Shown here piece after piece: positions 12,770-28,665 of a stretch of 40,078 bases of DNA. The notes beneath the pieces are model-generated. The model was given only the letters and a program-made list of their open reading frames with translations. It did not search any database and was not told the origin of the DNA. This stretch comes from a virus, in IMG/VR virus record IMGVR_UViG_3300034069_000373, positions 1-40,078 of that record; one strand, given 5' to 3'. The position numbers and the translations under genes are program-made. Position 1 is the stretch's first letter, and each line of letters begins with the position of its first letter.

Positions 12770-15238
12770 TTACCGGGAGGTAATCGCGGGAGCGGCTTTG
12801 TAGCCGATCTGTGCGGGACCGCTCAGCGCTTTCAGTAGCGCATTCTGTGCAGGGTCTTGCAATAGGCGGGCTGCTTGCTGAGGGTCGAGCAGCGCATTGC
12901 CAAGCCGCTCTTGGATCTGCTTGTTCGCGGTGCCGTAGGGCAATTGCAGCAGTCGGCCCAGCGTCGACGTTGCAGCGGTCGAGCCGCCAATGCCACGCCC
13001 AAGCATCCCCTGCAGAAGCTGGTTCTGTGCGAGGTTCTGCACCGTATTGGAGCCGACCGCGCGCCCGGTGTTGTTCGCAATCTGGCCGGCGTTTAGATCG
13101 GCCTGAATCCTGCGGAGAACGTCCAGCTGCGATGCGCTCAAGTCCTTGGCGAGATCATCGCCCTGGTTCTTGAGAACGTTATTCAGCTTGGCTGCGGAGA
13201 GGATGGCACCACCCTGCGAGTCCACCGTTCCGGTCTGGACGCTTTTCAAGATCTCGTCGAGCTTTTCCATTTGACCAATGGGAATGCTCTCATCGGTGTA
13301 GGCCTTCAGATAGCCGCGCCATGTGGGACGCGCACCTGTCGCAGCTTGGGCTGCTGGCGGGGCTCCTGCGGGGCCCACAGCGCGACTGCCGGGCATGGCT
13401 AGATCGGTTGCCGCCTCGAACGGGACAACCTCACGCGATGCGCTCAGCGGTGCGGATGCGGCGGGAGACGAGACGCGCCGGCTAGCCTGGTCGATGGCGT
13501 CATCAATCAGGCCCTTGACGTTGGTCAGTTGGCTGGAGGCGTACTTCAGGTTGCCTGCGTCGCCTTGCAGCTTGCCCTGCAGCGTCGTGTTGATGTCCTT
13601 GCGTATCTCGTACAGCGCCCGGGCGTCAATCGCCCCGTCCTTGCTGAACTGTTCGATGCGTGTGCGAAACTTGTTCAGCGCCTGCTGAGAAAGCTCGCCT
13701 GCGTTGTCCGGTTTGGAGATAAGGCGATCGATGGACTTGAGAATGCTTTCCGATGGCACATTTCCTGCAGCACTCAACACCTCTTCGCGCATCGGATCGG
13801 TCAGCGCCTTGCGTGCGTCCTTCGCAAGTGCGATCTTTCCGGTATTGCCGGCAATGTCTTCAATCGCTGCGGTACGGGCTTGGTTCTGAGCAGTCTGCCG
13901 CGCGGAGAGGCCTGCGGCATATTCGGGGCTCGCGTTCTGCATGGCGCGGCTGAGAGCGGCGATACCGTCATCGCCTGCAGCGGTTGCAGCCGTGGGGGCG
14001 GAGCCGGGGACGATCTCCTGTGCTCCTTGCAGCGCGGTCCGGGCAGCAGCTGGATTGATTGCAGCCTGGCGAAGTGCATCGCCTGCGATCTGGTTTTGTC
14101 CGGCAGCGTAGAAGGGACGAACCACAGAGCCAGCAGCGCGGCCCACTGCGCCGACAGCCGAAGCGACCGGAGGCAGCGCACCGCCCACGAGAGCGCCTAC
14201 GCCTGCATTCGCCGGGTCGATAAGCCCTGCGCCTGCAGCACCAGCACCAGCACCGCCAGCGATGCGCAGTAGCATGTTCGTCGGTCTCGAGCCGGCTCCA
14301 GCCTTTGCGCCACTCGACGCAAGCGCAGTAGCAAGCCGGCCAGCACCAGCAGCACGCGCGGGGATCGCCAGCACGTTACCAGCACCAGCCGTACCCGCCA
14401 CCTCGCCCACGAGCTTACCGCCTTGGTAGGCAATCGACTCAGGATCTGCACCCAACGACTGAAGCGCGCTATCCATGTCCGCACGGCGCGCCCGATTGGA
14501 TTCAAGGGATAACCCTTTGCCTGCGATCGCGTCTTTGGCGATATCGATCGGGGCAAGTAAAGTTGCGCCGATGGAGCCAGCACCACGGATGAGGCCCGCG
14601 CCCACATTGCCTGCACCTTGAAGGAAGCGATCGTTGAGCGATTTTTCCGGCGCTTTGACTGGCTTGTCTTCAAGTTGGGCGAGAAGCTCGGGGTCTTCGA
14701 TGTACTGGCGCGCGGGCGCAGCCTCTGCGGCCTGTGCGGATGGAATCATTGCTTCAACCGCACGCTGGACAACACCGCGCTCTTTCGGCAGACGCGCTGC
14801 TACTTGCTGCCCGTACTGGAGGGTAGTGGGAGCGTTGGGGTTGCGCGGGTCGGAAACGGCGATACCCCGGCGAGCCTTCTCAAGTCCACCGGGTCCGCCG
14901 TAGTATCCCGCCGCAGTAAGGGCCGGATCTCCGCCAGCTTGTTCGTAAAGCTGTTTGACGTAGCGGATTCCTGCTCGGGCGTTTTGCTCGGGGTCATTGA
15001 TCTTCCAATCCTTGTCAGCTACTGAGCGAAACGTGTCGGGAATGATCTGCATGCCGCCGACAGCACCAGCATTGGATGTCTTGGTGTTGCGGCCACCGCT
15101 AGATTCTTGCTGGTAGATGCTACGCGCGATTTCGGCAACCTTGCCGCTCACACCTTCAGCTTTCAGAGCCGAATCGAACGGGTCGGAGCCTGCGCCCAGT
15201 TGACGCAGAAGATCGGGGTCTGTGATGTATTGGGGCAT
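12770..15238 (-). CDS. Internal virion/ejection protein with N-terminal soluble lytic transglycosylase (SLT) domain
   Basis: SIYQQESSGGRNTKTSNAGAVGGMQIIPDTF...AGIRY.. matches the SLT motifs. The rest is a long Ala/Gly-rich region. I took the start as the ATG at 15238 (MPQYITDP); an ATG at 15268 is the alternative. Confidence 0.8.
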   Translation of the reverse strand: MPQYITDPDLLRQLGAGSDPFDSALKAEGVSGKVAEIARSIYQQESSGGRNTKTSNAGAVGGMQIIPDTFRSVADKDWKINDPEQNARAGIRYVKQLYEQAGGDPALTAAGYYGGPGGLEKARRGIAVSDPRNPNAPTTLQYGQQVAARLPKERGVVQRAVEAMIPSAQAAEAAPARQYIEDPELLAQLEDKPVKAPEKSLNDRFLQGAGNVGAGLIRGAGSIGATLLAPIDIAKDAIAGKGLSLESNRARRADMDSALQSLGADPESIAYQGGKLVGEVAGTAGAGNVLAIPARAAGAGRLATALASSGAKAGAGSRPTNMLLRIAGGAGAGAAGAGLIDPANAGVGALVGGALPPVASAVGAVGRAAGSVVRPFYAAGQNQIAGDALRQAAINPAAARTALQGAQEIVPGSAPTAATAAGDDGIAALSRAMQNASPEYAAGLSARQTAQNQARTAAIEDIAGNTGKIALAKDARKALTDPMREEVLSAAGNVPSESILKSIDRLISKPDNAGELSQQALNKFRTRIEQFSKDGAIDARALYEIRKDINTTLQGKLQGDAGNLKYASSQLTNVKGLIDDAIDQASRRVSSPAASAPLSASREVVPFEAATDLAMPGSRAVGPAGAPPAAQAATGARPTWRGYLKAYTDESIPIGQMEKLDEILKSVQTGTVDSQGGAILSAAKLNNVLKNQGDDLAKDLSASQLDVLRRIQADLNAGQIANNTGRAVGSNTVQNLAQNQLLQGMLGRGIGGSTAATSTLGRLLQLPYGTANKQIQERLGNALLDPQQAARLLQDPAQNALLKALSGPAQIGYKAAPAITSR

Positions 15239-15239
15239 G

Positions 15240-16520
15240 TCAGTTGACCACGTACCAGCCTTTGCCATCGTTCTCGTAGGTTTTGCCGCCTACGGTCTTG
15301 CGAGTCGGTGCAGCGGTCTTGGGAGCGCTCTGAGACTGAGCGATAGGCGCGTTGCCGGCGTTGTTCTTGAACCCTTCAATGACCAATCGTCGGTTAGCCG
15401 CCTTTTGCTCAATCACCGCCTTCCCATCTCCAGGCTGCGGGAAGTATTGCTTCTTGGCGTTGTCAAACTCATCCTTGCCAATGGCTGCGCCTGACTCTTG
15501 ACGCAGCACAGCGTTGACGAAGTCGCGTTGCGCTTGCTCGGCTTTCTGTCCACTCTCTCCGAGCATCATGTTTGCGCCAGCCCCGAGCACGCCGCCGACC
15601 AGTGGGATGTTGCCTGCAGACTGCTTGGCATTGACTGCAGCCGGGGAGTAGCTATCGCCCAGCTCAGACAGGATGCGGTCAGCCTCTTGCGCACGACTAC
15701 CGAATGTCGCGGACTTGCCCTGGAATTCGGTGGGCGATGCCTTCTTGGCTGCTGCAGGATCTGCGGGGCCACCGGGAATAAAGGCAAGCGTACCGTCTTC
15801 GTTCTGGCGGTAACCAGAGGGGACGCGTCCATTCTGGTTCGCTTCGGTGGCTCGCCTGTCGGTCAGATCCTGACCGCGCATCGTGACGCCTTGACCCTGA
15901 AGCGCCGTGGATTGGGTCATGTCCTGGCCGCGTCGCGTCACGTCCTGCCCAGCAAGCGCCGTGCTCTGCGTGAGATCCTGACCGCGCATGGTGATGTCTT
16001 GGCCGCGAAGCTGCGTCTGGTTGGCGAGGCGATCCTTTGCGCTGAGCGTTGCCTGTGCAAACTGCGCGACACCGTTCGGGTCGTAAGTGGGGGAGAACTT
16101 GGACGTGTCGATGCCAAGCTGGTCCTTAAGGATGGCCAAGCCTTGCGTGTAGCTGGGCTGGTCTTTGACCGTGCCAACGACACTAGAGATGGCATCCAGT
16201 TGCTTGATGCGAAGTTCAAATTCGCTGGTCGACGCAGCGCGGGCGTCCTTGTTGGCCGCAGCGTTCGACGTAATGACGGAAGCAGCTTGGGGGAAAGCGC
16301 CCACACCCTGAAGAGCAGCGGCTTTCTGTTCAGCGGGGAGATTGACGAATGCAGGGTCCTGCACGACTTTTAGAAGCATGTTCTGCGACTGAGCCTCACG
16401 GTCGGCACGCTCGTTCTGCCCTTGGTAGGCTTTGATCTGATATGCCTGAGCAAGCGACGCCAGCGGGTTGATCTGCTGGGGCGCTTGGACTTGGCTATAG
16501 ATGTCGCTGCTGACGGGCAT
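15240..16520 (-). CDS. Internal virion/ejection protein (426 aa) with RGQD(I/L/V/M)T repeats
   Basis: Its position between two other internal proteins mirrors the gp7/gp20/gp16 block of P22-like phages. It is Gln/Ala-rich with internal repeats. Confidence 0.6.
   Translation of the reverse strand: MPVSSDIYSQVQAPQQINPLASLAQAYQIKAYQGQNERADREAQSQNMLLKVVQDPAFVNLPAEQKAAALQGVGAFPQAASVITSNAAANKDARAASTSEFELRIKQLDAISSVVGTVKDQPSYTQGLAILKDQLGIDTSKFSPTYDPNGVAQFAQATLSAKDRLANQTQLRGQDITMRGQDLTQSTALAGQDVTRRGQDMTQSTALQGQGVTMRGQDLTDRRATEANQNGRVPSGYRQNEDGTLAFIPGGPADPAAAKKASPTEFQGKSATFGSRAQEADRILSELGDSYSPAAVNAKQSAGNIPLVGGVLGAGANMMLGESGQKAEQAQRDFVNAVLRQESGAAIGKDEFDNAKKQYFPQPGDGKAVIEQKAANRRLVIEGFKNNAGNAPIAQSQSAPKTAAPTRKTVGGKTYENDGKGWYVVN
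15861..16010 (-). repeat. Degenerate coding repeats encoding (M/R)RGQD(I/L/V/M)T(QSTAL)
   Basis: The peptide is LRGQDITMRGQDLTQSTALAGQDVTRRGQDMTQSTALQGQGVTMRGQDLT. The corresponding cctgaccgcgcat / gtcctggccgcg units are visible in the DNA. Confidence 0.7.
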
Positions 16521-16528
16521 GATGGTCC

Positions 16529-18049
16529 TTACGGATTATTGTTGACGCCCGTCTTGGACGTGAGCAGGCTATTCAAAAGCTGGTTCTGTTGGTAGCTATT
16601 CACTGCGCCCGTCAACCCGCTGCTGATGGTATTCGCATTAGCGATGCCGGCGGCGCCTGCTGCATTGGCTGCAGAAGTCATGTTGTTGCCGATGATTTGC
16701 GCATTCTGCATACCTGCGTTACCCAGCGTCTGCGCGCCTACCGTGGCAGAGCCCGCCAGAGACAACAGCGGGTTGACTGCGTTCGAGAAGTTGGCCTGAT
16801 AGGCGTTAAACCCGTTCGTGCTGTTCGTATTGAACGCGTTAGCCCGATTCGTCTCGTTAACGTTGTAAGCGTTGAGGCGATTATTCTCGTTGGCGCCGTA
16901 AGCATTGAACCGGTTCGTCTCGTTCGTATTGAACGCGTTGTACTTGTTGCCCTCATTGGTCGTGAAGGCCTTATAGGCGTTGTTCTCGTTTGTGTTGAAG
17001 GCATTGAAGTTGTTGCCCTCGTTCGTCGTGAACGTCTTGTACCGGTTCGATTCGTTGGTGTTGTAGGCCTGCGCGCGGTTGCCTTCATTGGTGCCGAACG
17101 TGCCGAGTGCCCGCTGATAGGCGTTCTGGAATTCTTGCGATGCCGCGCCTTGGTTGTAGTTGGACGATGCCTGCAATTGAGCGCCCGACAAAAACCGCCC
17201 CGATGCCGCACCTTGGCGGTCAAGCGCTTTCTGTCCTTGCTGCAACCGGAACTGATAACTCGGGTCGTTGTAGAGGTCTTCGCCCGTGTAGCTGAACTTG
17301 TCGGCAACGTAAGGATCTGCGCCCTGATACTGCCCTGCCTGATACTTGCCGGCCTCGTAAGTACCTGGTTGGTAGGTGTTGGGGTTGTAGGGCGTGGCAG
17401 CCTCGTAGGGCGTTGCAGCCTGATAGACCGGCGCGGTGTAGCCGTTGGCGAGGCTGCCGAACTTTGGATCGTTCTGAGCGGCCTGCTGAGCGGCCTGCTG
17501 AGCAGCTTGCTGCTGCGACGTTTGCTGGTCTAGACGCGCCTGAATGGCTGCATTGAGCCCCGCCTCGTCAACGTTCGAGGTAGCATCGTTGGACGGGGTT
17601 ACACCTCCGCCCGTGGGCGTGAACTGACCACCTTCGCCGAACGGGTCGTAGGCTGTGGCCCAGTTGGGTCCAGATGCAGGCGTTCCGGGCATCGGCGCCG
17701 CAGTGCTCCCGGAAGTTCCGGGGCGCGTGTATTGCGCGAGCAGCTCATTGCGAATCGCATCACGGTCCTGCGGCGCTGCGCCTGATGCCGCGCCACCGAG
17801 ACCCCCTACGCTGGTAGACCCGGAGAACCCGGTAGGCGAGATGCCGAGCAGGTAGGACAACCGGTCCCGAGCTGCGTTGCCGGTGTTGATGTTGGGCGCG
17901 TTGAGTGCGACATTGTTGTCGTACTGGCGTGCGCTCTCTGCGTTGGCTGCTTCAGCCGCCCGCTCTTGCCCCTTCGCTGCCTTACCCGTGGCGCTGGATG
18001 AAATGGCCGCGCCACCAATCGTCGCCGCTGCGCCTATTGCTGCAACCAT
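16529..18049 (-). CDS. Internal virion/ejection protein (506 aa) with about ten Asn-rich 11-residue tandem repeats
   Basis: Gly/Ala-rich N-terminus, Q-rich stretch, then the units GTNEGNRAQAY/NTNESNRYKTF/TTNEGNNFNAF/NTNENNAYKAF/TTNEGNKYNAF/NTNETNRFNAY/GANENNRLNAY/NVNETNRANAF/NTNSTNGFNAY. Confidence 0.6.
   Translation of the reverse strand: MVAAIGAAATIGGAAISSSATGKAAKGQERAAEAANAESARQYDNNVALNAPNINTGNAARDRLSYLLGISPTGFSGSTSVGGLGGAASGAAPQDRDAIRNELLAQYTRPGTSGSTAAPMPGTPASGPNWATAYDPFGEGGQFTPTGGGVTPSNDATSNVDEAGLNAAIQARLDQQTSQQQAAQQAAQQAAQNDPKFGSLANGYTAPVYQAATPYEAATPYNPNTYQPGTYEAGKYQAGQYQGADPYVADKFSYTGEDLYNDPSYQFRLQQGQKALDRQGAASGRFLSGAQLQASSNYNQGAASQEFQNAYQRALGTFGTNEGNRAQAYNTNESNRYKTFTTNEGNNFNAFNTNENNAYKAFTTNEGNKYNAFNTNETNRFNAYGANENNRLNAYNVNETNRANAFNTNSTNGFNAYQANFSNAVNPLLSLAGSATVGAQTLGNAGMQNAQIIGNNMTSAANAAGAAGIANANTISSGLTGAVNSYQQNQLLNSLLTSKTGVNNNP
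16781..17098 (-). repeat. Tandem 33-bp (11-codon) coding repeats, about 9-10 units
   Basis: Periodic gttgaa/gttcgt...gcgtt units are visible on the plus strand. I mapped the frame codon by codon for the last units (NAFNTNSTNGFNAYQANFSNAV). Confidence 0.8.
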
Positions 18050-18050
18050 G

Positions 18051-18506
18051 TCAATCCCCTATCCATTTCGTGTAAAGCGTTTCTGTGGGATGCCACCCCA
18101 TGAATTCAAAGAGAGGCCCTGCGTTAAGCGAGAGCTTCGTGCCGGTGAAGAGCTTTTTGACTCCGCGATCTTTCAGCGACTTCTCGACAAATTGAAAGAG
18201 GCGAAGCGGCGTGCGGCCAGTGCGGTGGGTCGGAGCTATGTAGTAGATGTCCGTCTGACCGCAGAGGGTGGACACGTAATGCAGATGCGGCCCAACGATG
18301 GTGAAGCTGTAGCCGACAATGGCGCCTTCTTTGCGTGCTACAACGATGTGCAGCATACCTCGGCTCTCCATAAGGTCGTAACGCTCAAAGTCAGGCATTA
18401 AGGGCATCTTGTCGCGGTTGAGTGCGACCTCCTCGTAGTGCTTGACCCACAGCGGAGCCATCTCCGTTTGAACGTCTGACCAGCTCTCAACAGCGTAGGT
18501 AGTCAT
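18051..18506 (-). CDS. GNAT-family N-acetyltransferase (151 aa)
   Basis: The size and pattern fit the GNAT fold: ...LHIVVARKEGAIVGYSFTIV......IYYIAPTHRTGRTPLRLFQFVEKSLKDRGVKKL..., including the acetyl-CoA-binding R/Q-x-x-G-x-G/A-like HRTGRT. Confidence 0.65.
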   Translation of the reverse strand: MTTYAVESWSDVQTEMAPLWVKHYEEVALNRDKMPLMPDFERYDLMESRGMLHIVVARKEGAIVGYSFTIVGPHLHYVSTLCGQTDIYYIAPTHRTGRTPLRLFQFVEKSLKDRGVKKLFTGTKLSLNAGPLFEFMGWHPTETLYTKWIGD

Positions 18507-19090
18507 GTGCGCACGTCCACAACAAGATGAATTCGCTCGACAGCAGAGTGGTTTACGACGCTATGCTCTGGCCGCTTGTCTTCAGGGGCTCCCTTGCCGT
18601 TGTTGAACCAATAGATTTCTCCGGGTGCCATGTAGACCTGCTCGTCACCAGCAGTGAACACCACACCAGGGGCGCTCTGCAGAACGATGTGATGACGCTC
18701 CCAATAGTTGGCGTGGTCTAGCGTGTCAGCATGCGGGTAGATGCGCCCGCCCGGCATGATGCGATTTACGATGACGCGCCCCAACCGAGTTCCTCGGACG
18801 TTCGCCATCAGTGCCATTACCAAATCACGGGCTTCGGGCAGTTTGTCGTAAACAGGCAGATCAATGCATTCGTGCTGGTCAACCGTGCGCAATAGTTCCT
18901 CGCGCTCCTCCTCAGTGGCTGGCACAGCGCGCGGCGGGAATCTCAGAATAATTGAATCAGTCTCGCCAAAAGGACCTTGCGGGAATGTCCGCAAATATGT
19001 GTCCTCGTGCCACCATCCCGGATTGCGGGCGATCTTTGCCATCAACGGGGTCACGTTGACGTTGGTAGCGAGGCGAAAGAAATTCTTCAT
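18503..19090 (-). CDS. Aspartyl/asparaginyl beta-hydroxylase-family 2OG-Fe(II) oxygenase (195 aa)
   Basis: PGGRIYPHADTLDH...WERHHIVLQS..GVVFTAGDEQVYMAPGEIYWFNN...EHSVVNHSAVERIHLVVD matches the Asp/Asn hydroxylase cupin pattern (I.PH.D ... R.H..L ... G....F.N...H.V.N.S...R.HL..D). Confidence 0.75.
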   Translation of the reverse strand: MKNFFRLATNVNVTPLMAKIARNPGWWHEDTYLRTFPQGPFGETDSIILRFPPRAVPATEEEREELLRTVDQHECIDLPVYDKLPEARDLVMALMANVRGTRLGRVIVNRIMPGGRIYPHADTLDHANYWERHHIVLQSAPGVVFTAGDEQVYMAPGEIYWFNNGKGAPEDKRPEHSVVNHSAVERIHLVVDVRT

Positions 19091-19446
19091 CGAGGAATGA
19101 CGGTTATCGACGGTGCCGCCGAGTATGTCACCCTGACCGCATCGCCCGGATTGAGCCTCACCACACCGCTATTCGGCAGGGCGTAGAAGGAAGTGCCATC
19201 TCGGGAGAAGTCCACATCGGAAACCGTGCCGCCCGAAACAATCAGATCCTGATCGAAATCGGTCTTATTTTCCCACGTATAGGGGGAAGCGGATAGAGTG
19301 GCTTCGGTAATTGCAGTCGTCGGGTTGCGGCCCAGCCCCTGCAGGTATTGCTGCAGCCACAAAGACATCTTGGCGACGAGCCCGCCGCCCTCGCTGACGA
19401 CATCAGCGATCTTCTGCCCGATACGTGGGACGCCTTGAGCCTTCAT
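19087..19446 (-). CDS. Hypothetical virion-module protein (119 aa)
   Basis: The ORF is in the track. It is coupled to both neighbours and lies directly downstream of the tail hub gene. Confidence 0.6.
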   Translation of the reverse strand: MKAQGVPRIGQKIADVVSEGGGLVAKMSLWLQQYLQGLGRNPTTAITEATLSASPYTWENKTDFDQDLIVSGGTVSDVDFSRDGTSFYALPNSGVVRLNPGDAVRVTYSAAPSITVIPR

Positions 19447-20852
19447 CCCTTGACCTCCAGCGTGGCGCCGATGATCACCTTCTTCACTGGGGCGTCAACG
19501 GCGATCTCGTAGATACGGTTTCGAGCCGCACCTAGACGGTTGAACACGATTCGCTTCTCGTACTCTCCGAGTTTACCCATGGGTCGCGTCACTTCGTTAT
19601 TGAAGACGCGGCCATCATCGGACCAGCGAAGCGAGATCAGAGGATCGGAGCCATAGCCTGCCGGCAAACCAACGCCCGCTTCCATCAGCACTTCTAGGCG
19701 CGAGTGGAATAGCCGAGCACCGCCCTTCCAAATATAGGGGGAGGCGCGCACAGAGCGGATGGGGTCGCCCGCGTTGTCGTACACGTCGAATTCCATCGCG
19801 TAGAGTCGACCGTCGCGATAGTCGCCGACCAGCAGTGAGCCGTAAGCAGAAGCGAAGCAGTTCAGCCGGTACCTCTTGAACTCTGCTGCCTCCCATTCCA
19901 GCCACTCAAACCATGAATTGGAGTGTGCGTCATAGCACCATGTCTTCTGTTCACTGGGGAAAGTCAACATGTAGATGGGGTGCCGACGAATGTCGAGACC
20001 GGTACCGAACGCGTCATCGACCTTGGCATATCCAGCAATCGCAGACTCTATCGCCACCGTGCTGATGCGCTGGGGCGTCTGGCCCTGCATGCGGTAGATA
20101 GCTAAAGCGCCTTGCGGGTTGTTGCCCAGCCAGAAGACGGAATCATCAGCGATGGCCGCAGAGTAGGGCGCAGAGCAACCGACCTCGTAGAACGCGCCGT
20201 CGACACGCTGGAAGGGGAACGCCGCAGCTCCTGAGTTGTACCAAAGCTCCAGCGAAGAGGTTCCGAAGACGTGCAGCAGTCGGTGATTGCTAACCACCGT
20301 CGAGAGGTTGTCCGGCAGTCCTTCGGCAGAGGCAAAATCGATCGCGTCCCATGTGAGAAAGTCGTACTGCCCGGAGATGCCGAATTGTCCAGTGTTAGGT
20401 AGGCCGACAATGCCGTAGCTGTCTTGGTAGGTTGCTTGGGTCGCGCCATAGACAAAGCCTGAATCGGTGATCTGCGTCCAAGCCGATGTTTCAATAGTGA
20501 AGACGAACCCCGACAGGCCGTCAATCACCAGCACTTGAAGGCCGTTGTCTTGCAGGGTGACGCGTCCAAGCCCGCTGAAGTTGCCCAGTGTCGTGAATGT
20601 CCAATCCGGATTGATGCGCCCGAACGACTGGCCGACAGCAGCGTACAGCACGCCGTTGACCTCGATCAGCCCCTTCACAGGACCACCCGCCAGGTTAGCA
20701 AGCAGCTTCAGCCCGGGCACGCCGTAGAGCGCTGTGGGCGTCTTCGCTTGGGTGTCGTCGCGCTCCAGCAGGAAGTTGATGCACCGTTGGTTGTTCACCG
20801 ACAGCGATGGCGCTTCGTATGCCGGCCCGACAAATCCCGCAATGAGGTTCAT
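19443..20852 (-). CDS. P22 gp10-like tail hub / packaged-DNA stabilisation protein (469 aa)
   Basis: Its size is close to P22 gp10 (472 aa). The N-terminus (MNLIAGFVGPAYEAPSLSVNNQRCINF..E) and the repetitive beta-propeller-like sequence are typical of the Phage_stabilise family. Confidence 0.7.
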   Translation of the reverse strand: MNLIAGFVGPAYEAPSLSVNNQRCINFLLERDDTQAKTPTALYGVPGLKLLANLAGGPVKGLIEVNGVLYAAVGQSFGRINPDWTFTTLGNFSGLGRVTLQDNGLQVLVIDGLSGFVFTIETSAWTQITDSGFVYGATQATYQDSYGIVGLPNTGQFGISGQYDFLTWDAIDFASAEGLPDNLSTVVSNHRLLHVFGTSSLELWYNSGAAAFPFQRVDGAFYEVGCSAPYSAAIADDSVFWLGNNPQGALAIYRMQGQTPQRISTVAIESAIAGYAKVDDAFGTGLDIRRHPIYMLTFPSEQKTWCYDAHSNSWFEWLEWEAAEFKRYRLNCFASAYGSLLVGDYRDGRLYAMEFDVYDNAGDPIRSVRASPYIWKGGARLFHSRLEVLMEAGVGLPAGYGSDPLISLRWSDDGRVFNNEVTRPMGKLGEYEKRIVFNRLGAARNRIYEIAVDAPVKKVIIGATLEVKG

Positions 20853-23062: not shown

Positions 23063-26000
23063 TTAGTTGACGTTCTGGCCGCCCATGTCGAAAGGTCGAC
23101 CTGGGGTAGCGCGGAAGCCGCCGTATTCAAACGGGAGGCCGTTGAGCAGTCGGCAACCGCCCTTGCCGCCATTCTGGCCGTTGTCGTTTGCGCAGCCTAC
23201 GCCGTCATTGGCAAACGAGTGCGTGTGCATGTTGATCCCTTCGCCGTACAGGAAGTTATGCACGCCACGACCGCCGTAGTCAGCGATGCCGAGCACATAG
23301 GACTCCGTGCCGTGGTTCGGTGCGTCGAAGATCGAGATCGGGTCGATGAGCTTCTGGTCTTGCAGCGTCTTCGTGACCGCAGCAGAGGTCCAAGCGGAAT
23401 TGAACTTCACCCACTGGATCTTTCGATCTCCACGCGAGTTAAGAATCATGTAGCGCTGAAACTTGACGCCATCAGCGTAGCTTTCACCCGAATAGGTGCT
23501 GGTGTCGTACTTTTCAAACCAGCCATGGCCGGCAGGCTGCACTACATCGGTGACGTTGCGGCCAACATCGATGGACATCAATTCGCTGATGTCATTCGGG
23601 TTGCCCGGGGCCGTTGCGCTGGGGCTGGCGTAAACCGTGCCCAGCGTGAAGAGGTGCATTTTGCCGTCTTGCGTTGTGACCACCGAACGCACGCCGTCTG
23701 CCTGATCCCGGAAGTTCGGCATTTGTCCTGCAGTCGGGGCGCTCGTCATCGTCACAACCTTGGCAATGGTTGGCTTTTGACTTGGCGTGTTGGCAAAGGT
23801 GTACGGCCACTGATTGGCAGCTGGGCCACGGTTGGCGATCATCGAGACAAAACCCGATTGCGACTGGCCGAAGTACTGCTGGCGGTAGTAGGCAAACAAG
23901 GGTTGCAGATCAATGAATGCAACCGTCTTCTCGCTTTTGCTCCACACGGTAGCGACACCCGATTTCGCAATTGAGGCACTGCGGTAGTTGCCGTGCTGGA
24001 TCTGGTCAGCGCTTGCACCGGCAGGGCCGAAGTAGCTACGACGCTCGTACTCGTCCGTCTCTAGGTTCGCGCCCCACGGGTCCGACTTCTCATAGTCGTC
24101 AGGGTTGACGCCCGTCGACGAGACGATGCCGGTAGGCGCCTTCATGTTCGACGGCAGATCGACGTAGCCGAGCAGCTTGGCGTAGATGTAGTTCGACTTG
24201 CCAGGAAGGCCAGCAAACACCTTCGGCCAGTTGTTCCAGTTGCGATACCAAGTCGATTCATCGTTGGGGTTGCAGCCTTGGCAGCCTTCGGCCAGCGCGA
24301 TCACTGCCACCTTGCCGGTGGTCGTGGCCGTGTCCCAGACCGTCACCAGCGCGAATTCACCGCTGTTAGTGATCGAGATAGCGGTGGGCACCTTGGTGGT
24401 GTCGCCTTGGAGGAAGTTGTACTTCAGGAAGTTGTGATTCGTGTTGCCACCGTGGCCGGTGATATCTCCGTTCTTCCAGACCGTGAGAGTGTTTGTGCAC
24501 CACCCGCCGTGACCCGTGCAGACCACCGAAGCGATCGGCTTGTAGTCGGGCGTGACTTGTGCAGCCCATGCCGGACGACCACCCTTGGCACCGACATAAC
24601 GGTCCATGTTGAAGTCGTTGTCGGCACCGTTTTGGCCGAAGCCTTCCGAGGTCGTCCAGTTGACTTGAGGCAGGACGCCTTCAGAACCGTAGTCGACGGT
24701 CAACATCAGGTAGTTGGCAATACCGTAGTACGGCTTCTTGTGGAAGCGGTCGTCTGGATCGGCGTCCGGAAGGTACGCGATCTGAGCATCCGAAGACGAG
24801 TAGTCCAGCGAATCAGCCTTGATCGGGCCGAAGGACATGAACGAGCAACCGTTCTGGTTGTTCGGGCCTGCTGTTCCCGTGCAGTTCGGCAGACGCCCGC
24901 CAGCGTTCGGGCCTGCGTCACCTAGCTTGCCGATGATCGGACGTGCAGCGTAATTGGAAAATCCGTTGTTGCCAGTCGTGCCGTAGTAGGCCGAGGAAGG
25001 GCCGAACCGGTATTCAATACCTGCATCGGTGCCAAAGGTGTTTGCTACCGTCGTGTACTTCGCAGAGTCGACGACACCGTTCGTCATGATTGACGCATCA
25101 AGCGGGCCTTGCGTGTTGAGCGTGCGAGGCTTGCCGTTCTTGATGGCGAGACAGATGCGCCCACTAGAGCCAACGCCGGTCGTTCCGAAACGAGCCGTGT
25201 TGCAGGTGTAAGTGCCAATGGGAAAGTAAACTTTCTTGTACTGCCCCTGAGCGCCGAAGGCAACCCAAGTCGGTTCCGCAAGAGAGAACGAGCCCCCTTC
25301 GTCAGAAACCTTTTGGTTGTTGCCCGCCTCGATGTAGCGGCATGCTTTCTGCACACCGACCTCAGGATCAGGGAACTGGCCGTCACGGCAATCCACGTCG
25401 CCGGCCGGATAGTCGCGATCGATCCACGGACCGTTGCCGTCACCGTACAGAACCTTAGTGGGCGTCGTAACCGTAGCAATGCCACGGAAGGCGAACAAGT
25501 TCGTCTCAACGGGGATCGGCGAAGACGGAGCGGACGGATTGTCGTAAGGAACGACGATGGTCTGCGCAGTGCCCGTGCCAGGATTGGTCGTGCCCGGATC
25601 GACGGGGGTAGTGCTTCCCGTGCCGCTGCCATTGTTCGGGATGTAGCAGCCGCCGTTTTTACCGTTGGACGGGTCGCCAAACACTGCAGTGGTACACGAA
25701 TAGGTGCCGGCAGCAAGTACGAGTTGGTTGTAGAAACCTACACCACCGAAGACCACCGTTTTCTGCGAGTCAAGCGTGAAGTTCGCGCCGACCTCTGCAA
25801 TCTTGGTTTCTGGCAGCGAGGAGATAGACGTGCAGAACTTCGTGCCTGGGCCTGGAGCTGCATCGCCGAGGATCTGATAGATGCACTGCTTGCTGTCGGA
25901 ATCGGTGATGTACTTGTCGGTACGTGCAGTGGAGGTGCCGAACGACACCAGCCGTGCGCCGTTCAGGACATAGGTCTGAGTTTCGTTCGCCAGGAAATAA

Positions 26001-26374
26001 CTGGTCCAAGCCGTTGCCGTCGGCGTGCTCGGGGCTGGGGTGTTGGGGTTCGTCCCCGTGCCTGCGTTCGAGCCGAAGACTGGGGCACCTGAATCTACGC
26101 CGCCGTTGGCCAGCGTCAATTTGCACTGCTTGCGCACCACGCCACTGACCGGCGTAGAGCCGAACAGGATAGGGTGACAGGGGTAGGTGCCAGCCGGCAG
26201 CGTCATGCGGTTCCAGACCGTTCCAATGCCATAGCTGACCGTGGAGGTAGCCGTCAGCTTAAAGCTGGTGGAAGCGGCGTTGGCTTCGTCTGCGAGCTTT
26301 CGCCCTGCAGGATTGGCCGCTAGGGCCGATGTGCTCACCGCGACCAGCGCGGCAATGTAGAGTAACTTTTTCAT
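23063..26374 (-). CDS. Large signal-peptide-bearing protein (1103 aa) with five tandem 2-Cys repeats of about 55 aa and a C-terminal region of about 650 aa; function unknown
   Basis: I chose the ATG at 26374 (MKKLLYIAALVAVSTSALA|ANPAG), which is preceded by caggaaccca 18 nt after the upstream stop. The tracked ORF upstream of it is Arg/His-rich junk. The repeats follow the pattern ..V.FG..G.Y......AGTY.C....FG(D)P..G....C. Confidence 0.8.
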   Translation of the reverse strand: MKKLLYIAALVAVSTSALAANPAGRKLADEANAASTSFKLTATSTVSYGIGTVWNRMTLPAGTYPCHPILFGSTPVSGVVRKQCKLTLANGGVDSGAPVFGSNAGTGTNPNTPAPSTPTATAWTSYFLANETQTYVLNGARLVSFGTSTARTDKYITDSDSKQCIYQILGDAAPGPGTKFCTSISSLPETKIAEVGANFTLDSQKTVVFGGVGFYNQLVLAAGTYSCTTAVFGDPSNGKNGGCYIPNNGSGTGSTTPVDPGTTNPGTGTAQTIVVPYDNPSAPSSPIPVETNLFAFRGIATVTTPTKVLYGDGNGPWIDRDYPAGDVDCRDGQFPDPEVGVQKACRYIEAGNNQKVSDEGGSFSLAEPTWVAFGAQGQYKKVYFPIGTYTCNTARFGTTGVGSSGRICLAIKNGKPRTLNTQGPLDASIMTNGVVDSAKYTTVANTFGTDAGIEYRFGPSSAYYGTTGNNGFSNYAARPIIGKLGDAGPNAGGRLPNCTGTAGPNNQNGCSFMSFGPIKADSLDYSSSDAQIAYLPDADPDDRFHKKPYYGIANYLMLTVDYGSEGVLPQVNWTTSEGFGQNGADNDFNMDRYVGAKGGRPAWAAQVTPDYKPIASVVCTGHGGWCTNTLTVWKNGDITGHGGNTNHNFLKYNFLQGDTTKVPTAISITNSGEFALVTVWDTATTTGKVAVIALAEGCQGCNPNDESTWYRNWNNWPKVFAGLPGKSNYIYAKLLGYVDLPSNMKAPTGIVSSTGVNPDDYEKSDPWGANLETDEYERRSYFGPAGASADQIQHGNYRSASIAKSGVATVWSKSEKTVAFIDLQPLFAYYRQQYFGQSQSGFVSMIANRGPAANQWPYTFANTPSQKPTIAKVVTMTSAPTAGQMPNFRDQADGVRSVVTTQDGKMHLFTLGTVYASPSATAPGNPNDISELMSIDVGRNVTDVVQPAGHGWFEKYDTSTYSGESYADGVKFQRYMILNSRGDRKIQWVKFNSAWTSAAVTKTLQDQKLIDPISIFDAPNHGTESYVLGIADYGGRGVHNFLYGEGINMHTHSFANDGVGCANDNGQNGGKGGCRLLNGLPFEYGGFRATPGRPFDMGGQNVN

Positions 26375-26391
26375 TGGGTTCCTGCTGGTGA

Positions 26392-28665
26392 TTAGGTGAG
26401 AGCGGGGGGCGTGGTCGGGACGGTATAGGTGGTACCGGAATAGAGAGCCGCACGGGCGCCGCGTGCGAAGCCGACTGTTCCCCGGAAGATGGAATCGACG
26501 CCTTGGTCGCCTTGGCGATAGATGCCCCACGGGCAGTAGAAGCCTTGAATGGTCCCGACAAACGCTGCAGTCGTCGTAGCGACTAGGTTGCCCTGCATGC
26601 GCACCGTGAACGTGCCGTTGGTCTCTCGCTGGAGCACAACGTGATAGCAGGTCTGACCGTTCTGCGTGATTGGATCGATTGCCGGCGTGGTGATCGTCTC
26701 GGTGATGCCCAACGCCTTGAAATAGCAATTGAACGTACGCTTGCCCGTAGATCCTGGATCGTTGGCAAAGATCCGAATAAAGGTGTTGTCAGAGTCAAGA
26801 CCGGTCTCAGCGAACGACAGAACCGTTCCATCACCACTTCCGTTAGCCATCGGGATACGGGCATGGTTCTCGAGAGTCATCGCCCCCGTGACGGTGTACG
26901 AAACGTCAGAGACGATCGCGATGCGGTTACCTTCGGACGAGTCGGTATAACAGCCTAGAACGCCCACATAAGGACCGAAAGGGTCTCCCTTGCCGCCGAC
27001 AACCTGCCCTGTACCCCAGTTATGGTAGATCGCGCCGTTCGTGGCCTTGTTCTGCACTCCTGATTGCCGCTGGTTATCCTGGAAATCAGAGAAATCCAGA
27101 TAGGCAAACGTCGTGCTTGCAGGAGTCGGCGAAGGTGCAGGAGACGGGCTAGGCGAAGGACTCGGAGAGGGCGCAGGAGCCGGCGGCGCAGGTGTTGGAG
27201 TCGTTGAGCTAGAGCCCCAGTCAATCACCGTATTCGTGCTCAACTGGACGAGTGAATTCGTCGTCAGGGTTCCGCTCGACAGCGACACAAAGTTAAGCGT
27301 CTGCGTCTGAGCATTGCGGCGCGGCACGTATACCTTACGGCCTGTCGCATTGATGTCAGTACCTGCGTAGGTGCTGGTGCCAGTTGCCGTGACGGACGAC
27401 GCAGCAGGGCGGAAGATAGAGGCACGGAACCACGTATTGAAGTCGACATATACCTTGGGCGTGAAGTCGTGGCCCGCCGAGGTGATGCCGTAGGTGATGT
27501 TCGTCGCCGTGCCTGTCTCAGGATGATCCGCAGGGTAGGCCGTCGCCGACGAGATCAGCATTGTCCCCAGCTCATCGCCGCTAGCCTCGGCAAATAGCGG
27601 ATCGATCATGTCGCCGCTGTAGCAGAACACCAAAGCATTGCTGCGGTGCGCCTTGAAGCCGCAGAAGTTGGGACGGATCGCGCCAGCGAGGAACGTCACG
27701 CCGAACCGCACTGAATCCAACTCGATGCCGGAGAAGTCGGGCTCGATCGCCAGATCAGTGAAGACGAAGACCGAGCCTCTGACGGGGCCTAATTCATCGT
27801 TGGCAACGTCGGGATACGACAGGTCTGGATCTGGCGCATCACCATCATTGATGACCTGATGCGTCATGTTGCCCGTATAGATGCGGCAACGCTTGTTGAC
27901 GAACTTGGTGAACTCCGCGCCGCAGTAGACCGCGCGGTTGATGTTGAGCCAGCGGCCCTCGGCATCGGACGGCAGGAGATTGGTGTTTCCCGAGTAGATC
28001 GCCGCCTGAAGCTCTGCCCAGTCGCGCTGATCATCTAGGCTGGTAACGAACGGGAAGCGCAATTGCGCAGCCTCCAGCGTTTCAAAGTCGTTGGACAACG
28101 GCCAATCTTGGACCGTGTTGACGTTGTTGCCGTAAGAATTACCGTCTTGGTCGTATCGCTGTTCGCTATAGTCAATGGAGCTGGGCGAACGCTTGAGATA
28201 GCGCAGCAGAGGCACGGGCTGGCCGTTCTCGCCTGCACCGCTGGGCACGGTCATCTGCGAGGCAGAGGCAACCGGCTCACCACTGGGGGCGGGCGTGACT
28301 ATGACTGTCCCACCGTCCGAGGTGTATGTGGGCAGCGGGTGGAACTGTTTGTCTGCACCCCAGTAGTAATCCGCTCGATTGTTCGGGCTGGCAATCGCCG
28401 GCTCTTTAGCGGCCAGAGCTTGAACAAGCAGCGGGCTATCTAGCGGACTACCGGGCAGGTTCGACCAGTTGTAGGTGGGTATGACCACCGGACCACTACC
28501 GTTGCCAGGGTCTTGGATGACGATGACGCCACCAATGTAGGCCTTGATCTGGGCGAGCTGGACCGATCCAGTCTTCTGGCCGTACTGAAGCGGCAAATAC
28601 TCATTGCCCGTCAGGCTCGGGAAGACCGGCAACTGATCGATACGCTTCGGACCCAAACTGTTCAT
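26392..28665 (-). CDS. Tailspike / tail fibre protein (757 aa) with Pro/Ser/Ala linker and C-terminal lectin-like domain
   Basis: The N-terminus RIDQLPVFPSLTGNEYLPLQYGQKTGSVQLAQIKAYI is a common tail-fibre/tailspike anchor motif. An internal linker PTPAPPAPAPSPSPSPSPSPAPSPTPAS is followed by a domain of about 235 aa. Confidence 0.7.
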   Translation of the reverse strand: MNSLGPKRIDQLPVFPSLTGNEYLPLQYGQKTGSVQLAQIKAYIGGVIVIQDPGNGSGPVVIPTYNWSNLPGSPLDSPLLVQALAAKEPAIASPNNRADYYWGADKQFHPLPTYTSDGGTVIVTPAPSGEPVASASQMTVPSGAGENGQPVPLLRYLKRSPSSIDYSEQRYDQDGNSYGNNVNTVQDWPLSNDFETLEAAQLRFPFVTSLDDQRDWAELQAAIYSGNTNLLPSDAEGRWLNINRAVYCGAEFTKFVNKRCRIYTGNMTHQVINDGDAPDPDLSYPDVANDELGPVRGSVFVFTDLAIEPDFSGIELDSVRFGVTFLAGAIRPNFCGFKAHRSNALVFCYSGDMIDPLFAEASGDELGTMLISSATAYPADHPETGTATNITYGITSAGHDFTPKVYVDFNTWFRASIFRPAASSVTATGTSTYAGTDINATGRKVYVPRRNAQTQTLNFVSLSSGTLTTNSLVQLSTNTVIDWGSSSTTPTPAPPAPAPSPSPSPSPSPAPSPTPASTTFAYLDFSDFQDNQRQSGVQNKATNGAIYHNWGTGQVVGGKGDPFGPYVGVLGCYTDSSEGNRIAIVSDVSYTVTGAMTLENHARIPMANGSGDGTVLSFAETGLDSDNTFIRIFANDPGSTGKRTFNCYFKALGITETITTPAIDPITQNGQTCYHVVLQRETNGTFTVRMQGNLVATTTAAFVGTIQGFYCPWGIYRQGDQGVDSIFRGTVGFARGARAALYSGTTYTVPTTPPALT

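What the first reader, a model, noticed from the sequence alone, without database searches (positions are those of the whole stretch)
16529..19090. An Asp/Asn beta-hydroxylase and a GNAT acetyltransferase sit beside an internal virion protein built of Asn-rich 11-residue repeats: a possible virion protein modification module
Two enzyme genes, a hydroxylase-family 2OG oxygenase (18503..19090) and a GNAT (18051..18506), are inserted between the tail-hub block and the three ejection-protein genes.

The very next gene (16529..18049) contains about ten tandem units of consensus N-T-N-E-x-N-x-[FY]-[NK]-[AT]-[FY]. That gives three Asn per 11 residues, each unit ending in an aromatic residue.

Asp/Asn beta-hydroxylases act on Asn or Asp in repetitive contexts, such as EGF and ankyrin repeats in eukaryotes. 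The adjacency suggests, by inference only, that the repeat protein or another virion or ejection protein is hydroxylated and/or acetylated. Alternatively, the enzymes are injected or act on host envelope components such as lipid A (LpxO belongs to this family).
Basis: inference. Interest (0 to 1): 0.65.

Follow-up and report, generated by a model that had tools for sequence, protein, structure and literature searches.

The report
Oxygenase-acetyltransferase pair beside phage ejection genes
In a short-tailed phage genome, a small iron/2-oxoglutarate oxygenase is tightly paired with the acetyltransferase-like gene that normally heads the DNA-ejection-protein operon (in some relatives the two are one fused protein), but the Asn-rich repeats in the next protein are an independent, length-variable feature and not what the enzymes track.

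Summary
The three ORFs, the PF05118 oxygenase, the GNAT fold and ten 11-residue Asn-rich units (E1 aa 318-427, nt 16769-17098) are all present.

1. The GNAT is not an insertion. It sits in the IVP-A slot, where T7 gp13 and P22 gp14 sit. Hardies et al. 2016 already described an acetyltransferase-like gene there, between the tail hub and IVP-B.

2. The oxygenase is the real add-on, and it tracks the GNAT.
- The GNAT follows it in 70 of 70 informative IMG/VR loci of the window's clade.
- It also follows in 36 of 36 loci of a second clade, where the pair lies between terminase and portal.
- At least five loci encode both domains in one ORF.
- HxD...H and the 2OG-binding Arg are invariant.
- The best solved relatives are free-proline hydroxylases, ahead of human AspH.

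3. The repeat does not co-vary with the enzymes.
- Close E1 relatives have 2-7 units.
- 65 E1 homologues from oxygenase-bearing loci score 0-3 units.
- PfAn1 has both enzymes and no repeat.
- A marine phage has an E1 with at least seven units and no oxygenase.

Most likely the pair acts jointly during ejection-protein morphogenesis. The substrate is unknown. I rate this a new variant of a known module, of moderate interest.

The parts
19443..20852 (-). Tail hub (P22 gp10-like, 'head closure Hc3'), upstream boundary of the block
   Evidence: PHROG 578, E 3.2e-109. Pfam Phage_stabilise 24.8 bits.
19087..19446 (-). 119-aa small protein whose C-terminus resembles tail-spike C-termini. Its stop overlaps the oxygenase start (ATGA).
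   Evidence: PHROG 31370 at 4.6e-7 and PHROG 11182 at 3.8e-4. Junction.
18503..19090 (-). Soluble Fe(II)/2-oxoglutarate oxygenase of Pfam family PF05118. It is the accessory partner of the GNAT.
   Evidence: PF05118 at 5.2e-10. H120, D122, H176 and R186 are invariant in 19 sequences. Profile against PDB: 4p7w at 6.3e-8, 1e5r at 1.2e-5, AspH at 5e-3. No TM-like segment.
18051..18506 (-). GNAT-fold protein in the IVP-A position (the slot of T7 gp13 and P22 gp14)
   Evidence: PHROG 1249. AF2 pLDDT 88. Foldseek matches to phage NATs including VpV262, and to RimI/AAC(3). Literature.
16529..18049 (-). First ejection protein (E1), IVP-B-like, in the class of P22 gp7 and T7 gp14. It has a Gly/Ala-rich hydrophobic N-terminus, a conserved DPSYQFRLxQGQ motif, the repeat array and an Ala/Asn/Gly-rich C-terminus.
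   Evidence: PHROG 598 'DNA ejection' at 1.2e-10. 160 homologues. HMM hits to P26218 and Vibrio phage 'DNA ejection' proteins.
16769..17098 (-). Ten 11-residue Asn-rich units (aa 318-427). This is a copy-number-variable segment predicted to be helical.
   Evidence: 2-7 units in 75 close relatives. AF2 helices 289-360 and 368-472, with pLDDT 52-80 over the array.
15240..16520 (-). Second ejection protein (E2, 426 aa)
   Evidence: Position. PHROG 35431 at 9.3e-8. Homologues at the same position in relatives.
12770..15268 (-). Third ejection protein (E3, 832 aa) with an N-terminal lytic transglycosylase domain
   Evidence: Pfam SLT at 1.5e-14. PHROG 35577 at 2.3e-47.

Best explanation
The region is the head of a podovirus ejection-protein (internal virion protein, IVP) operon. 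The gene order is tail hub, a small protein, an oxygenase, a GNAT, E1 (IVP-B-like), E2, then E3 with a transglycosylase domain.

The GNAT is the IVP-A-type acetyltransferase-like gene that ordinarily precedes IVP-B. T7 gp13 and P22 gp14 occupy the same slot.

The Fe(II)/2OG oxygenase is an accessory gene that has become a fixed partner of that GNAT. The two genes are translationally coupled. They travel together into a different genomic neighbourhood, and several phages encode them as one polypeptide. All of this is shown.

By sequence, both proteins look catalytically competent. This is inferred.

I therefore propose that the two act together late in infection. They would act on one substrate, or as one complex, connected with the assembly of ejection proteins into the procapsid. 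The most parsimonious target is the IVP-B-like protein that always follows them. An example would be acetylation or acylation by the GNAT plus hydroxylation by the oxygenase. This too is inferred, and the substrate is unknown.

The Asn-rich 11-residue array is a separate matter. It is a selectively maintained, copy-number-variable segment of E1, predicted to be helical. It probably sets the length or surface of a rod or channel element. It is not what recruits the enzymes.
For: Operon identity comes (terminase, portal, scaffold, adaptor, hub, SLT).

The GNAT as IVP-A:
- It lies directly before IVP-B-like genes here and in PfAn1, Zobellviridae and Manatee Spring phages.
- Its fold matches VpV262 and other phage NATs.
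- Hardies et al. 2016 state that this slot holds an acetyltransferase-like, non-structural gene, and that T7 IVP-A matches an acetyltransferase.

Coupling of the oxygenase to the GNAT:
- The GNAT follows the oxygenase in 70 of 70 IMG/VR loci with at least 561 nt downstream. It mostly does so with a 4-nt overlap.
- It follows in 36 of 36 DC33-like loci, where the pair lies between terL and portal.
- It follows in most genomic prophage loci at about 37% identity or more.
- Single-ORF fusions occur in L168, L173, L212, L213 and L215. Both Pfam domains were confirmed for L168 and L173.

Asymmetry. In INPHARED, 28 phage records have the GNAT and 3 have the oxygenase. Two of those three also carry the GNAT, directly downstream of the oxygenase.

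Catalytic residues:
- In the oxygenase, H120/D122/H176/R186 are invariant. They align to the HxD, His and Arg of proline hydroxylase 4p7w.
- In the GNAT, R95 and G97 in the beta4-alpha3 loop, plus H23, E26, Y66, H76, Y77, D86 and E142, are invariant.

Independence of the repeat.

Selection on the repeat. Units are only 58% identical at the DNA level, yet Asn4, Asn7 and the aromatic position are 10/10.
Against: - There is no direct evidence of any modification, of enzyme activity, or of which molecule is the substrate.
- My own profile comparison of the GNAT family with single P22 gp14 and T7 gp13 sequences found no signal. Homology to those two proteins therefore rests on position, fold class and the cited paper.
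- The window GNAT's beta4-alpha3 loop (H-R-T-G-R-T-P) departs from the canonical Q/R-x-x-G-x-G/A.
- The best solved relatives of the oxygenase act on free amino acids, not on proteins.
- A few oxygenase loci lack an adjacent GNAT: L159, L160, L167, L169, L171, L172, L174 and MW202665.
- The helical model of the repeat has only moderate confidence, with pLDDT 52-80. Its hydrophobicity spectrum peaks at 131 degrees, not at the 98 degrees expected of a simple amphipathic helix.
Confidence: 0.6

Rival explanations
1. The oxygenase beta-hydroxylates Asn residues of the 11-residue repeats of E1, with the GNAT perhaps acetylating it. The repeat would be the substrate platform.
For: - The genes are adjacent in the window.
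- Asn4 and Asn7 are invariant, with an aromatic residue at Asn4+5. This superficially echoes the AspH consensus [D/N]-x4-[F/Y] (compared from my own knowledge of AspH).
- The oxygenase is in the PF05118 family.
Against: - The enzymes are retained where the repeat is absent or minimal. PfAn1 has none. The closest relatives L012 and L014 have 1-2 units. 65 E1 homologues in oxygenase-bearing loci score 0-3, which is the level of shuffled controls.
- In the DC33 clade the pair sits next to a 107-aa protein without repeats.
- A marine phage has an E1 with at least seven units but no oxygenase.
- E1 has no Cys, and therefore no EGF-like fold.
- The oxygenase has a full HxD...H triad and is closer to proline hydroxylases than to AspH.
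Confidence: 0.07
2. The pair is a host-directed or metabolic cassette that is merely carried in the late operon. It would hydroxylate and N-acylate a non-virion target. Candidates are an envelope lipid (LpxO/OlsC-like together with OlsB-like chemistry), a free amino acid, or a host protein such as a ribosomal protein.
For: - PF05118 contains the lipid hydroxylases LpxO and OlsC, and OlsB is an N-acyltransferase. This comes from established knowledge and was not tested here.
- The best solved relatives of the oxygenase are free L-proline hydroxylases.
- The best solved relative of the GNAT is RimI, with aminoglycoside acetyltransferases next.
- More distant cellular homologues of the oxygenase lie next to outer-membrane efflux, porin and peroxidase genes.
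Against: - In more than 100 loci the pair sits inside head or ejection morphogenesis genes, immediately before an IVP-B-like gene.
- The GNAT occupies the IVP-A slot, which the literature links to morphogenesis.
- Neither protein has a membrane-spanning segment. The maximum 19-residue hydropathy is 1.14 and 1.09. LpxO, by contrast, is membrane-bound (from my own knowledge).
- Both proteins are much smaller than OlsB and OlsC.
Confidence: 0.2
3. One or both proteins are non-catalytic. The GNAT fold would serve as an assembly chaperone or scaffold for ejection proteins, as Pfam's name for T7 Gp13, 'probable scaffold protein', implies. The oxygenase fold would be a structural partner.
For: [quoted passage not shown]
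- Pfam names PF11090 a probable scaffold protein.
- The window GNAT's CoA-binding loop is non-canonical.
Against: - The metal and 2OG ligands H120, D122, H176 and R186 are strictly invariant across sequences down to 56% identity. They are retained in the fused and DC33-type proteins at about 30% identity.
- Polar residues of the GNAT are invariant.
- Conservation of this kind is unexpected for a purely structural role.
Confidence: 0.13

Closest known systems
IVP-A genes of podoviruses (T7 gp13, P22 gp14, the phiRIO-1/VpV262-group acetyltransferase-like gene; Hardies et al. 2016, PMC4819975)
   Same: - A small (about 140-150 aa) gene lies between the tail hub or tubular tail B gene and IVP-B.
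- It has an acetyltransferase (GNAT) fold.
- The VpV262 protein is among the top structural matches.
   Different: - No sequence-level signal to T7 gp13 or P22 gp14 appeared in my hhalign test.
- Here the gene is preceded by, and in relatives fused to, a 2OG oxygenase. The cited description does not mention this.
IVP-B / ejection protein 1 (P22 gp7, T7 gp14)
   Same: - It is the first gene after IVP-A.
- It has a Gly/Ala-rich hydrophobic N-terminus.
- It hits the PHROG 'DNA ejection' family.
- Two larger ejection proteins follow it, the last carrying a transglycosylase domain.
   Different: - It is 506 aa, against about 200-230 aa.
- It has no Pfam P22_gp7 hit.
- It carries a ten-unit Asn-rich 11-mer array that neither P22 gp7 nor T7 gp14 shows.
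Human aspartyl/asparaginyl beta-hydroxylase (AspH) and Pfam PF05118
   Same: - The Pfam hit is above the cut-off.
- The double-stranded beta-helix core aligns over about 90 residues.
   Different: - AspH aligns at only E 5e-3 to 0.25.
- The window family has the full HxD...H triad. In the alignment AspH has Gly at the Asp position.
- There is no TPR domain, and no EGF-like substrate is encoded nearby.
L-proline cis-4-hydroxylase (PDB 4p7w) and proline 3-hydroxylase (1e5r)
   Same: - These are the best solved sequence relatives (6.3e-8 and 1.2e-5).
- HxD, the distal His and the Arg-x-H-L-x-V-D motif all align.
   Different: - Those enzymes are about 290 aa and act on free L-proline.
- The phage protein is 195 aa. 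Its substrate is unknown and nothing ties it to proline.
OlsB/OlsC (ornithine-lipid N-acyltransferase plus LpxO-like hydroxylase)
   Same: An N-acyltransferase-superfamily enzyme is paired with a PF05118-family hydroxylase. This comparison comes from my own knowledge and was not tested here.
   Different: - The phage proteins are much smaller and soluble.
- They are embedded in virion morphogenesis genes.
- I obtained no sequence evidence for a specific relationship.

Membership tests
PF05118 Fe(II)/2OG oxygenases (Asp/Asn beta-hydroxylase family) | Profile match above the curated threshold | tested here: met
   39.8 bits against a cut-off of 22.6, E 5.2e-10. All 120 listed homologues carry precomputed PF05118.
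PF05118 Fe(II)/2OG oxygenases (Asp/Asn beta-hydroxylase family) | Fe(II) ligands (HxD/E...H) and a 2OG C5-carboxylate-binding basic residue | tested here: met
   H120, D122, H176 and R186 are invariant in 19 sequences. They align to the corresponding motifs of 4p7w and 1e5r.
AspH-type protein Asp/Asn hydroxylase (function) | A substrate Asp/Asn within a disulfide-bonded EGF-like domain with consensus C-x-[D/N]-x4-[F/Y]-x-C-x-C | tested here: not met
   E1 and E2 contain no cysteine. Co-occurrence with the Asn repeat fails.
AspH-type protein Asp/Asn hydroxylase (function) | Hydroxylase activity on a peptide substrate | not testable with these tools
   This needs an enzyme assay or mass spectrometry.
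GNAT superfamily | GNAT fold (mixed beta-sheet with a beta4-alpha3 CoA site) | tested here: met
   AF2 pLDDT 88 and pTM 0.82. Foldseek TM is 0.73-0.76 to RimI and AAC(3), and up to 0.90 to phage NATs. 14 of 14 relatives hit Acetyltransf_1.
GNAT superfamily | Canonical acetyl-CoA pyrophosphate-binding motif Q/R-x-x-G-x-G/A | tested here: inconclusive
   R95 and G97 are invariant, but the spacing and last residue deviate. The window has H-R-T-G-R-T-P and relatives have x-R-x-G-x-x-G.
Podovirus IVP-A (T7 gp13 / P22 gp14 class) | A small gene directly between the tail hub or tubular tail B gene and IVP-B, matching an acetyltransferase | tested here: met
   The definition comes from PMC4819975.
Podovirus IVP-A (T7 gp13 / P22 gp14 class) | Detectable homology to T7 gp13 (PF11090) or P22 gp14 (PF11039) | tested here: inconclusive
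   hhalign of the GNAT profile against the single sequences gave probability below 1%. There was no Pfam cross-hit. The single-sequence targets limit sensitivity.
Podovirus IVP-A (T7 gp13 / P22 gp14 class) | Required for morphogenesis but absent from the mature virion | not testable with these tools
   This needs genetics and virion proteomics.
IVP-B / ejection protein 1 (P22 gp7, T7 gp14 class) | First ejection-protein gene after IVP-A, with a hydrophobic Gly/Ala-rich N-terminus and membership of a 'DNA ejection' family | tested here: met
   PHROG 598 at 1.2e-10. The N-terminus MVAAIGAAATIGGAAISSS has the highest hydropathy in the protein. HMM hits to annotated DNA-ejection proteins at 1e-51 and 3e-42.
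LpxO/OlsC lipid hydroxylases | Membrane anchoring (transmembrane segments) | tested here: not met
   No 19-residue window exceeds a mean hydropathy of 1.14. That LpxO is membrane-bound is from my own knowledge.

The most novel reading that the evidence does not exclude
IVP-A proteins of podoviruses are real enzymes. In this large clade the GNAT and its oxygenase partner install a two-step covalent modification on an ejection protein. The steps would be hydroxylation plus acetylation or acylation, and the most likely target is the IVP-B-like protein. The modification would be needed for that protein to be packaged into the capsid or inserted into the host envelope. This would be the first enzymatic function assigned to the long-unexplained T7 gp13 / P22 gp14 class, and the first post-translational modification pathway dedicated to a phage DNA-ejection machine.
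Probability: 0.25. Interest if true: 0.75.

Novelty: new variant of a known kind. Interest (0 to 1): 0.5.

Why it matters
What IVP-A proteins (T7 gp13, P22 gp14) do has stayed open for decades. They are needed to make infectious particles, yet they are not part of the particle.

A widespread phage clade is described here, with at least 446 IMG/VR contigs and 141 genomic loci. In it the IVP-A-type GNAT is locked to a 2OG oxygenase that is catalytically intact by sequence, and the two are sometimes fused. That argues the slot encodes chemistry rather than only a chaperone.

It also gives a concrete handle. An isolated phage, Pseudomonas phage PfAn1, carries the pair and can be mutated and analysed by mass spectrometry.

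The repeat result shows separately that an ejection protein can vary by whole 11-residue units, from 2 to 10. That may be a way of tuning the length or surface of an envelope-spanning element.

Tried and rejected
- Megablast of the region against 50,697 phage records found no close relative.
- NCBIfam gave no hits for any of the five proteins.
- hhalign of the GNAT profile against single P22 gp14 and T7 gp13 sequences gave no signal. I therefore do not claim sequence homology from my own data.
I rebuilt the alignment from database hits.
- Literature searches found nothing on PfAn1, nothing on an AspH-like gene in a phage ejection operon, and nothing beyond Hardies et al. on T7 gp13 as an acetyltransferase.
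- A clean 11/3 amphipathic-helix reading of the repeat did not hold. The hydrophobicity spectrum peaks at the 4th harmonic (131 degrees), not at 98 degrees. I report only that the segment is predicted helical at moderate confidence.
- I suspected a 22-residue super-repeat from protein lag scores. DNA identities do not support it: lag 1 is 0.616 and lag 2 is 0.614.
- I suspected that BPP-1 Bbp23, the gene after its GNAT, is a cupin. It has no Pfam hit, so I dropped the idea.
Full report
**What is in the sequence.**

All genes of the region are on the minus strand and tightly packed. In order of transcription they are:
- a P22 gp10-like tail hub (19443-20852);
- a 119-aa protein (19087-19446);
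- a 195-aa oxygenase (18503-19090);
- a 151-aa GNAT (18051-18506);
- a 506-aa protein, E1 (16529-18049);
- a 426-aa protein, E2 (15240-16520);
- an 832-aa protein with an N-terminal lytic transglycosylase domain, E3 (12770-15268).

ATGA overlaps link the 119-aa gene to the oxygenase and the oxygenase to the GNAT. One base separates the GNAT stop from the E1 start. Upstream lie large terminase, portal, scaffold and adaptor genes. The window is therefore a P22-type short-tailed phage genome. Its own 40,078-base contig is the only one that carries its oxygenase. Its nearest cellular copies are prophages of Variovorax and Pseudacidovorax.

**Checking the observation.**

The oxygenase passes the PF05118 threshold.

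The window GNAT alone is just below Pfam's cut-off. It is nonetheless clearly a GNAT:
- It hits PHROG 1249 at 1.5e-12.
- All 14 aligned relatives hit Acetyltransf_1.
- A confident AlphaFold model (pLDDT 88) superposes on phage N-acetyltransferases at TM up to 0.90, and on RimI and AAC(3) at TM about 0.75.

E1 carries ten in-register 11-residue units at aa 318-427. An aromatic residue at position 1 and Asn at positions 4 and 7 are each present in 10 of 10 units. Shuffled sequences never give more than 3-4 chained units. The units are only 58% identical at the DNA level, so the array is old and held by selection rather than by recent slippage.

**The GNAT is not an insertion.**

In PfAn1, Zobellviridae vibriophages, oyster-associated phages and Manatee Spring contigs, a homologous GNAT sits directly after the tail hub or tubular tail B gene. 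It sits directly before a small and then a large internal protein.

Hardies et al. 2016 (PMC4819975) described exactly this. [quoted passage not shown] They state that T7 IVP-A (gp13) also matches one. [quoted passage not shown] P22 gp14 is 151 aa and lies immediately before gp7. VpV262's acetyltransferase, a member of that group, is among the best structural matches to the window protein.

My own profile comparison with single gp13 and gp14 sequences found nothing. I therefore file the GNAT in the IVP-A class by position, fold and literature, not by demonstrated sequence homology.

**The oxygenase is the add-on, and it tracks the GNAT.**

The oxygenase family is large, with 382 clusters, 446 IMG/VR contigs and 141 genomic loci.
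- *The window's clade.* Of the 80 best IMG/VR loci, every one of the 70 with at least 561 nt downstream has the GNAT next. It usually overlaps by 4 nt. The ten loci without it are all truncated contigs.
- *A second clade.* In a lineage typified by Limnohabitans phage DC33, the same ordered pair lies between the large terminase and the portal. A short protein with an IVP-B-like Gly/Ala-rich N-terminus follows it. The GNAT is present in 36 of 36 informative loci.
- *Genomic prophages.* The GNAT follows in nearly all loci whose oxygenase is about 37% or more identical to the window's. The hosts are Burkholderiales, Xanthomonadales, Acinetobacter and Acidobacteriota.
- *Fusions.* In L168 (Polynucleobacter), L173 (Limnohabitans) and IMG/VR L212, L213 and L215, one ORF of about 340-350 aa carries both domains. 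The fused proteins are as little as 42% identical to each other, so the fusion is not a single assembly error.
- *The converse does not hold.* The GNAT is common without the oxygenase. In INPHARED there are 28 GNAT records and 3 oxygenase records, and two of those three also carry the GNAT directly downstream.

This asymmetry, the conserved gene order, the relocation of the pair as a unit and the fusions together make a strong case. The oxygenase works with the GNAT.

**What kind of oxygenase.**

H120, D122, H176 and R186 are invariant. A family profile finds L-proline cis-4-hydroxylase (4p7w, 6.3e-8) and proline 3-hydroxylase (1e5r, 1.2e-5) ahead of human AspH (5e-3). The HxD, the distal His and the Arg-containing strand are all aligned. 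In that alignment AspH has Gly where this family has the metal-binding Asp.

The protein is small and has no membrane-spanning segment, unlike LpxO (from my own knowledge). 'Asp/Asn beta-hydroxylase' is thus a family label and not evidence of substrate. More distant homologues, below 35% identity, are cellular. They lie beside outer-membrane and redox genes, or form the C-terminal domain of cyanobacterial proteins of about 770 aa. They have no GNAT beside them.

**The repeat is independent of the enzymes.**
- Among 75 close E1 relatives the same array has 2-7 units, and the window's ten is the maximum seen.
- The closest syntenic relatives, L012 and L014 (56-58% identical E1, 79-81% identical enzymes), have one or two units.
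- 65 distinct E1 homologues from oxygenase-bearing loci score 0-3 units, which is the level of shuffled controls.
- PfAn1 has both enzymes and a 210-aa E1 without any repeat.
- Rhodoferax phage P26218 and Vibrio phage 36E38.1 have clear E1 homologues but no oxygenase and no detectable GNAT.
- A P22-like marine phage (L210) has a 509-aa E1 with at least seven Asn-rich units. It has only a weak GNAT-like gene upstream, and no oxygenase in 21.5 kb.
- E1 has no cysteine, so it lacks the EGF-type context that AspH needs.

**What the repeat may be.**

AlphaFold places the array in two long helices (289-360 and 368-472) at moderate confidence, with pLDDT 52-80. This agrees with the generally helical nature of internal virion proteins noted by Hardies et al.. 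On an 11/3 helical wheel the two aromatic positions and Glu5 fall within 65 degrees of each other. Asn2, Asn7, Asn10 and Thr3 form a broad polar face. However, the hydropathy spectrum does not peak at the alpha-helical harmonic. I therefore say only that this is probably a helical element that changes length in whole units.

**Mechanism, with shown and inferred steps.**

Shown:
- the operon architecture;
- the GNAT fold;
- the intact oxygenase ligands;
- the obligate pairing, relocation and fusion of oxygenase and GNAT;
- the independence of the repeat.

Inferred: the two enzymes act jointly, late in infection, on a common substrate linked to ejection-protein assembly. The IVP-B-like protein that always follows is the most economical candidate. 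The top solved match of the GNAT is RimI, an N-terminal acetyltransferase. IVP-B N-termini begin Met followed by a small residue. Both facts are compatible with N-terminal acetylation, but that is only a lead.

Rivals: a host-directed or metabolic role (0.2), non-catalytic chaperone roles (0.13), and the original Asn-repeat idea (0.07).

**Novelty and verdict.**

The IVP-A acetyltransferase-like gene is known. I found no description in the held literature of its fixed partnership with a 2OG oxygenase, or of their fusion. I rate this a new variant of a known kind, of moderate interest (0.5). It gives the old question of IVP-A function a testable biochemical hypothesis, and an isolated phage, PfAn1, in which to test it.

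Noticed in passing
L168:6001-7020, L173:6001-7041, L212:3001-4047, L213:3001-4047, L215:2932-4041: Single ORFs of about 340-370 aa encode the oxygenase domain fused N-terminally to the GNAT domain. They lie between terminase and portal genes in Polynucleobacter and Limnohabitans prophages and in IMG/VR contigs. The fused proteins are as little as 42% identical to one another.
   Followed up: yes
L002 (PQ492659.1, Limnohabitans phage DC33): The GenBank record carries an Inoviridae (filamentous ssDNA phage) taxonomy line. It is in fact a 39-kb genome with a large terminase, a portal and the oxygenase-GNAT pair, so it is a tailed phage with BPP-1-like gene order.
   Followed up: partly
window 23063-26728 (-): This very long TTG-start ORF (1221 aa) has no PHROG hit. 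An internal MKKLLYIAALVAVSTSALA looks like a signal peptide and is a likelier true start. That would make it a secreted or exported protein of about 1100 aa in the tail region.
   Followed up: no
P0269, P0270, P0285; L210:10001-11530: Marine and metagenomic E1-type proteins share the DPSYQFRLxQGQ motif and 7-9 Asn-rich 11-mers. Their N-terminal regions are different, with repeated 'AAIRQAYLDYLGR' segments and Gly/Pro-rich linkers. The motif-plus-repeat unit therefore behaves as a portable module.
   Followed up: partly
L185, L186, L182 and similar genome loci: Distant homologues of the oxygenase (27-35% identity) are cellular. Stand-alone genes of about 185 aa sit next to outer-membrane efflux protein, catalase-peroxidase, phosphate porin or histidine-kinase genes in Alphaproteobacteria. 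In cyanobacteria the domain is the C-terminus of proteins of about 770-800 aa. None has an adjacent GNAT.
   Followed up: partly
L006:6846-7253 (BPP-1 bbp22), L002:8070-8393 (DC33 107-aa protein): Both small proteins lie downstream of the GNAT and upstream of the portal gene, DC33's directly after the GNAT and bbp22 after bbp23. They have a Gly/Ala-rich hydrophobic N-terminus followed by a Gln/Lys-rich stretch and a shared C-terminal 'GQSGTMLTGPQG' motif. The N-terminus resembles that of T7 gp14 and the window's E1. These phages may keep an IVP-A/IVP-B pair in the head module.
   Followed up: no
window 18051-18506 (-): The public gene call for the window's GNAT is 136 aa (P0121, 90% coverage). 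The 151-aa start MTTYAVESW is conserved in all relatives and overlaps the oxygenase stop by 4 nt, so the longer form is the likely product.
   Followed up: yes
L017, L019, L021, L131: In several Dyella/Rhodanobacter-type loci the oxygenase, the GNAT and the hub are each broken into short ORFs (for example an 81-aa oxygenase fragment). This suggests decaying prophages or error-rich assemblies.
   Followed up: no
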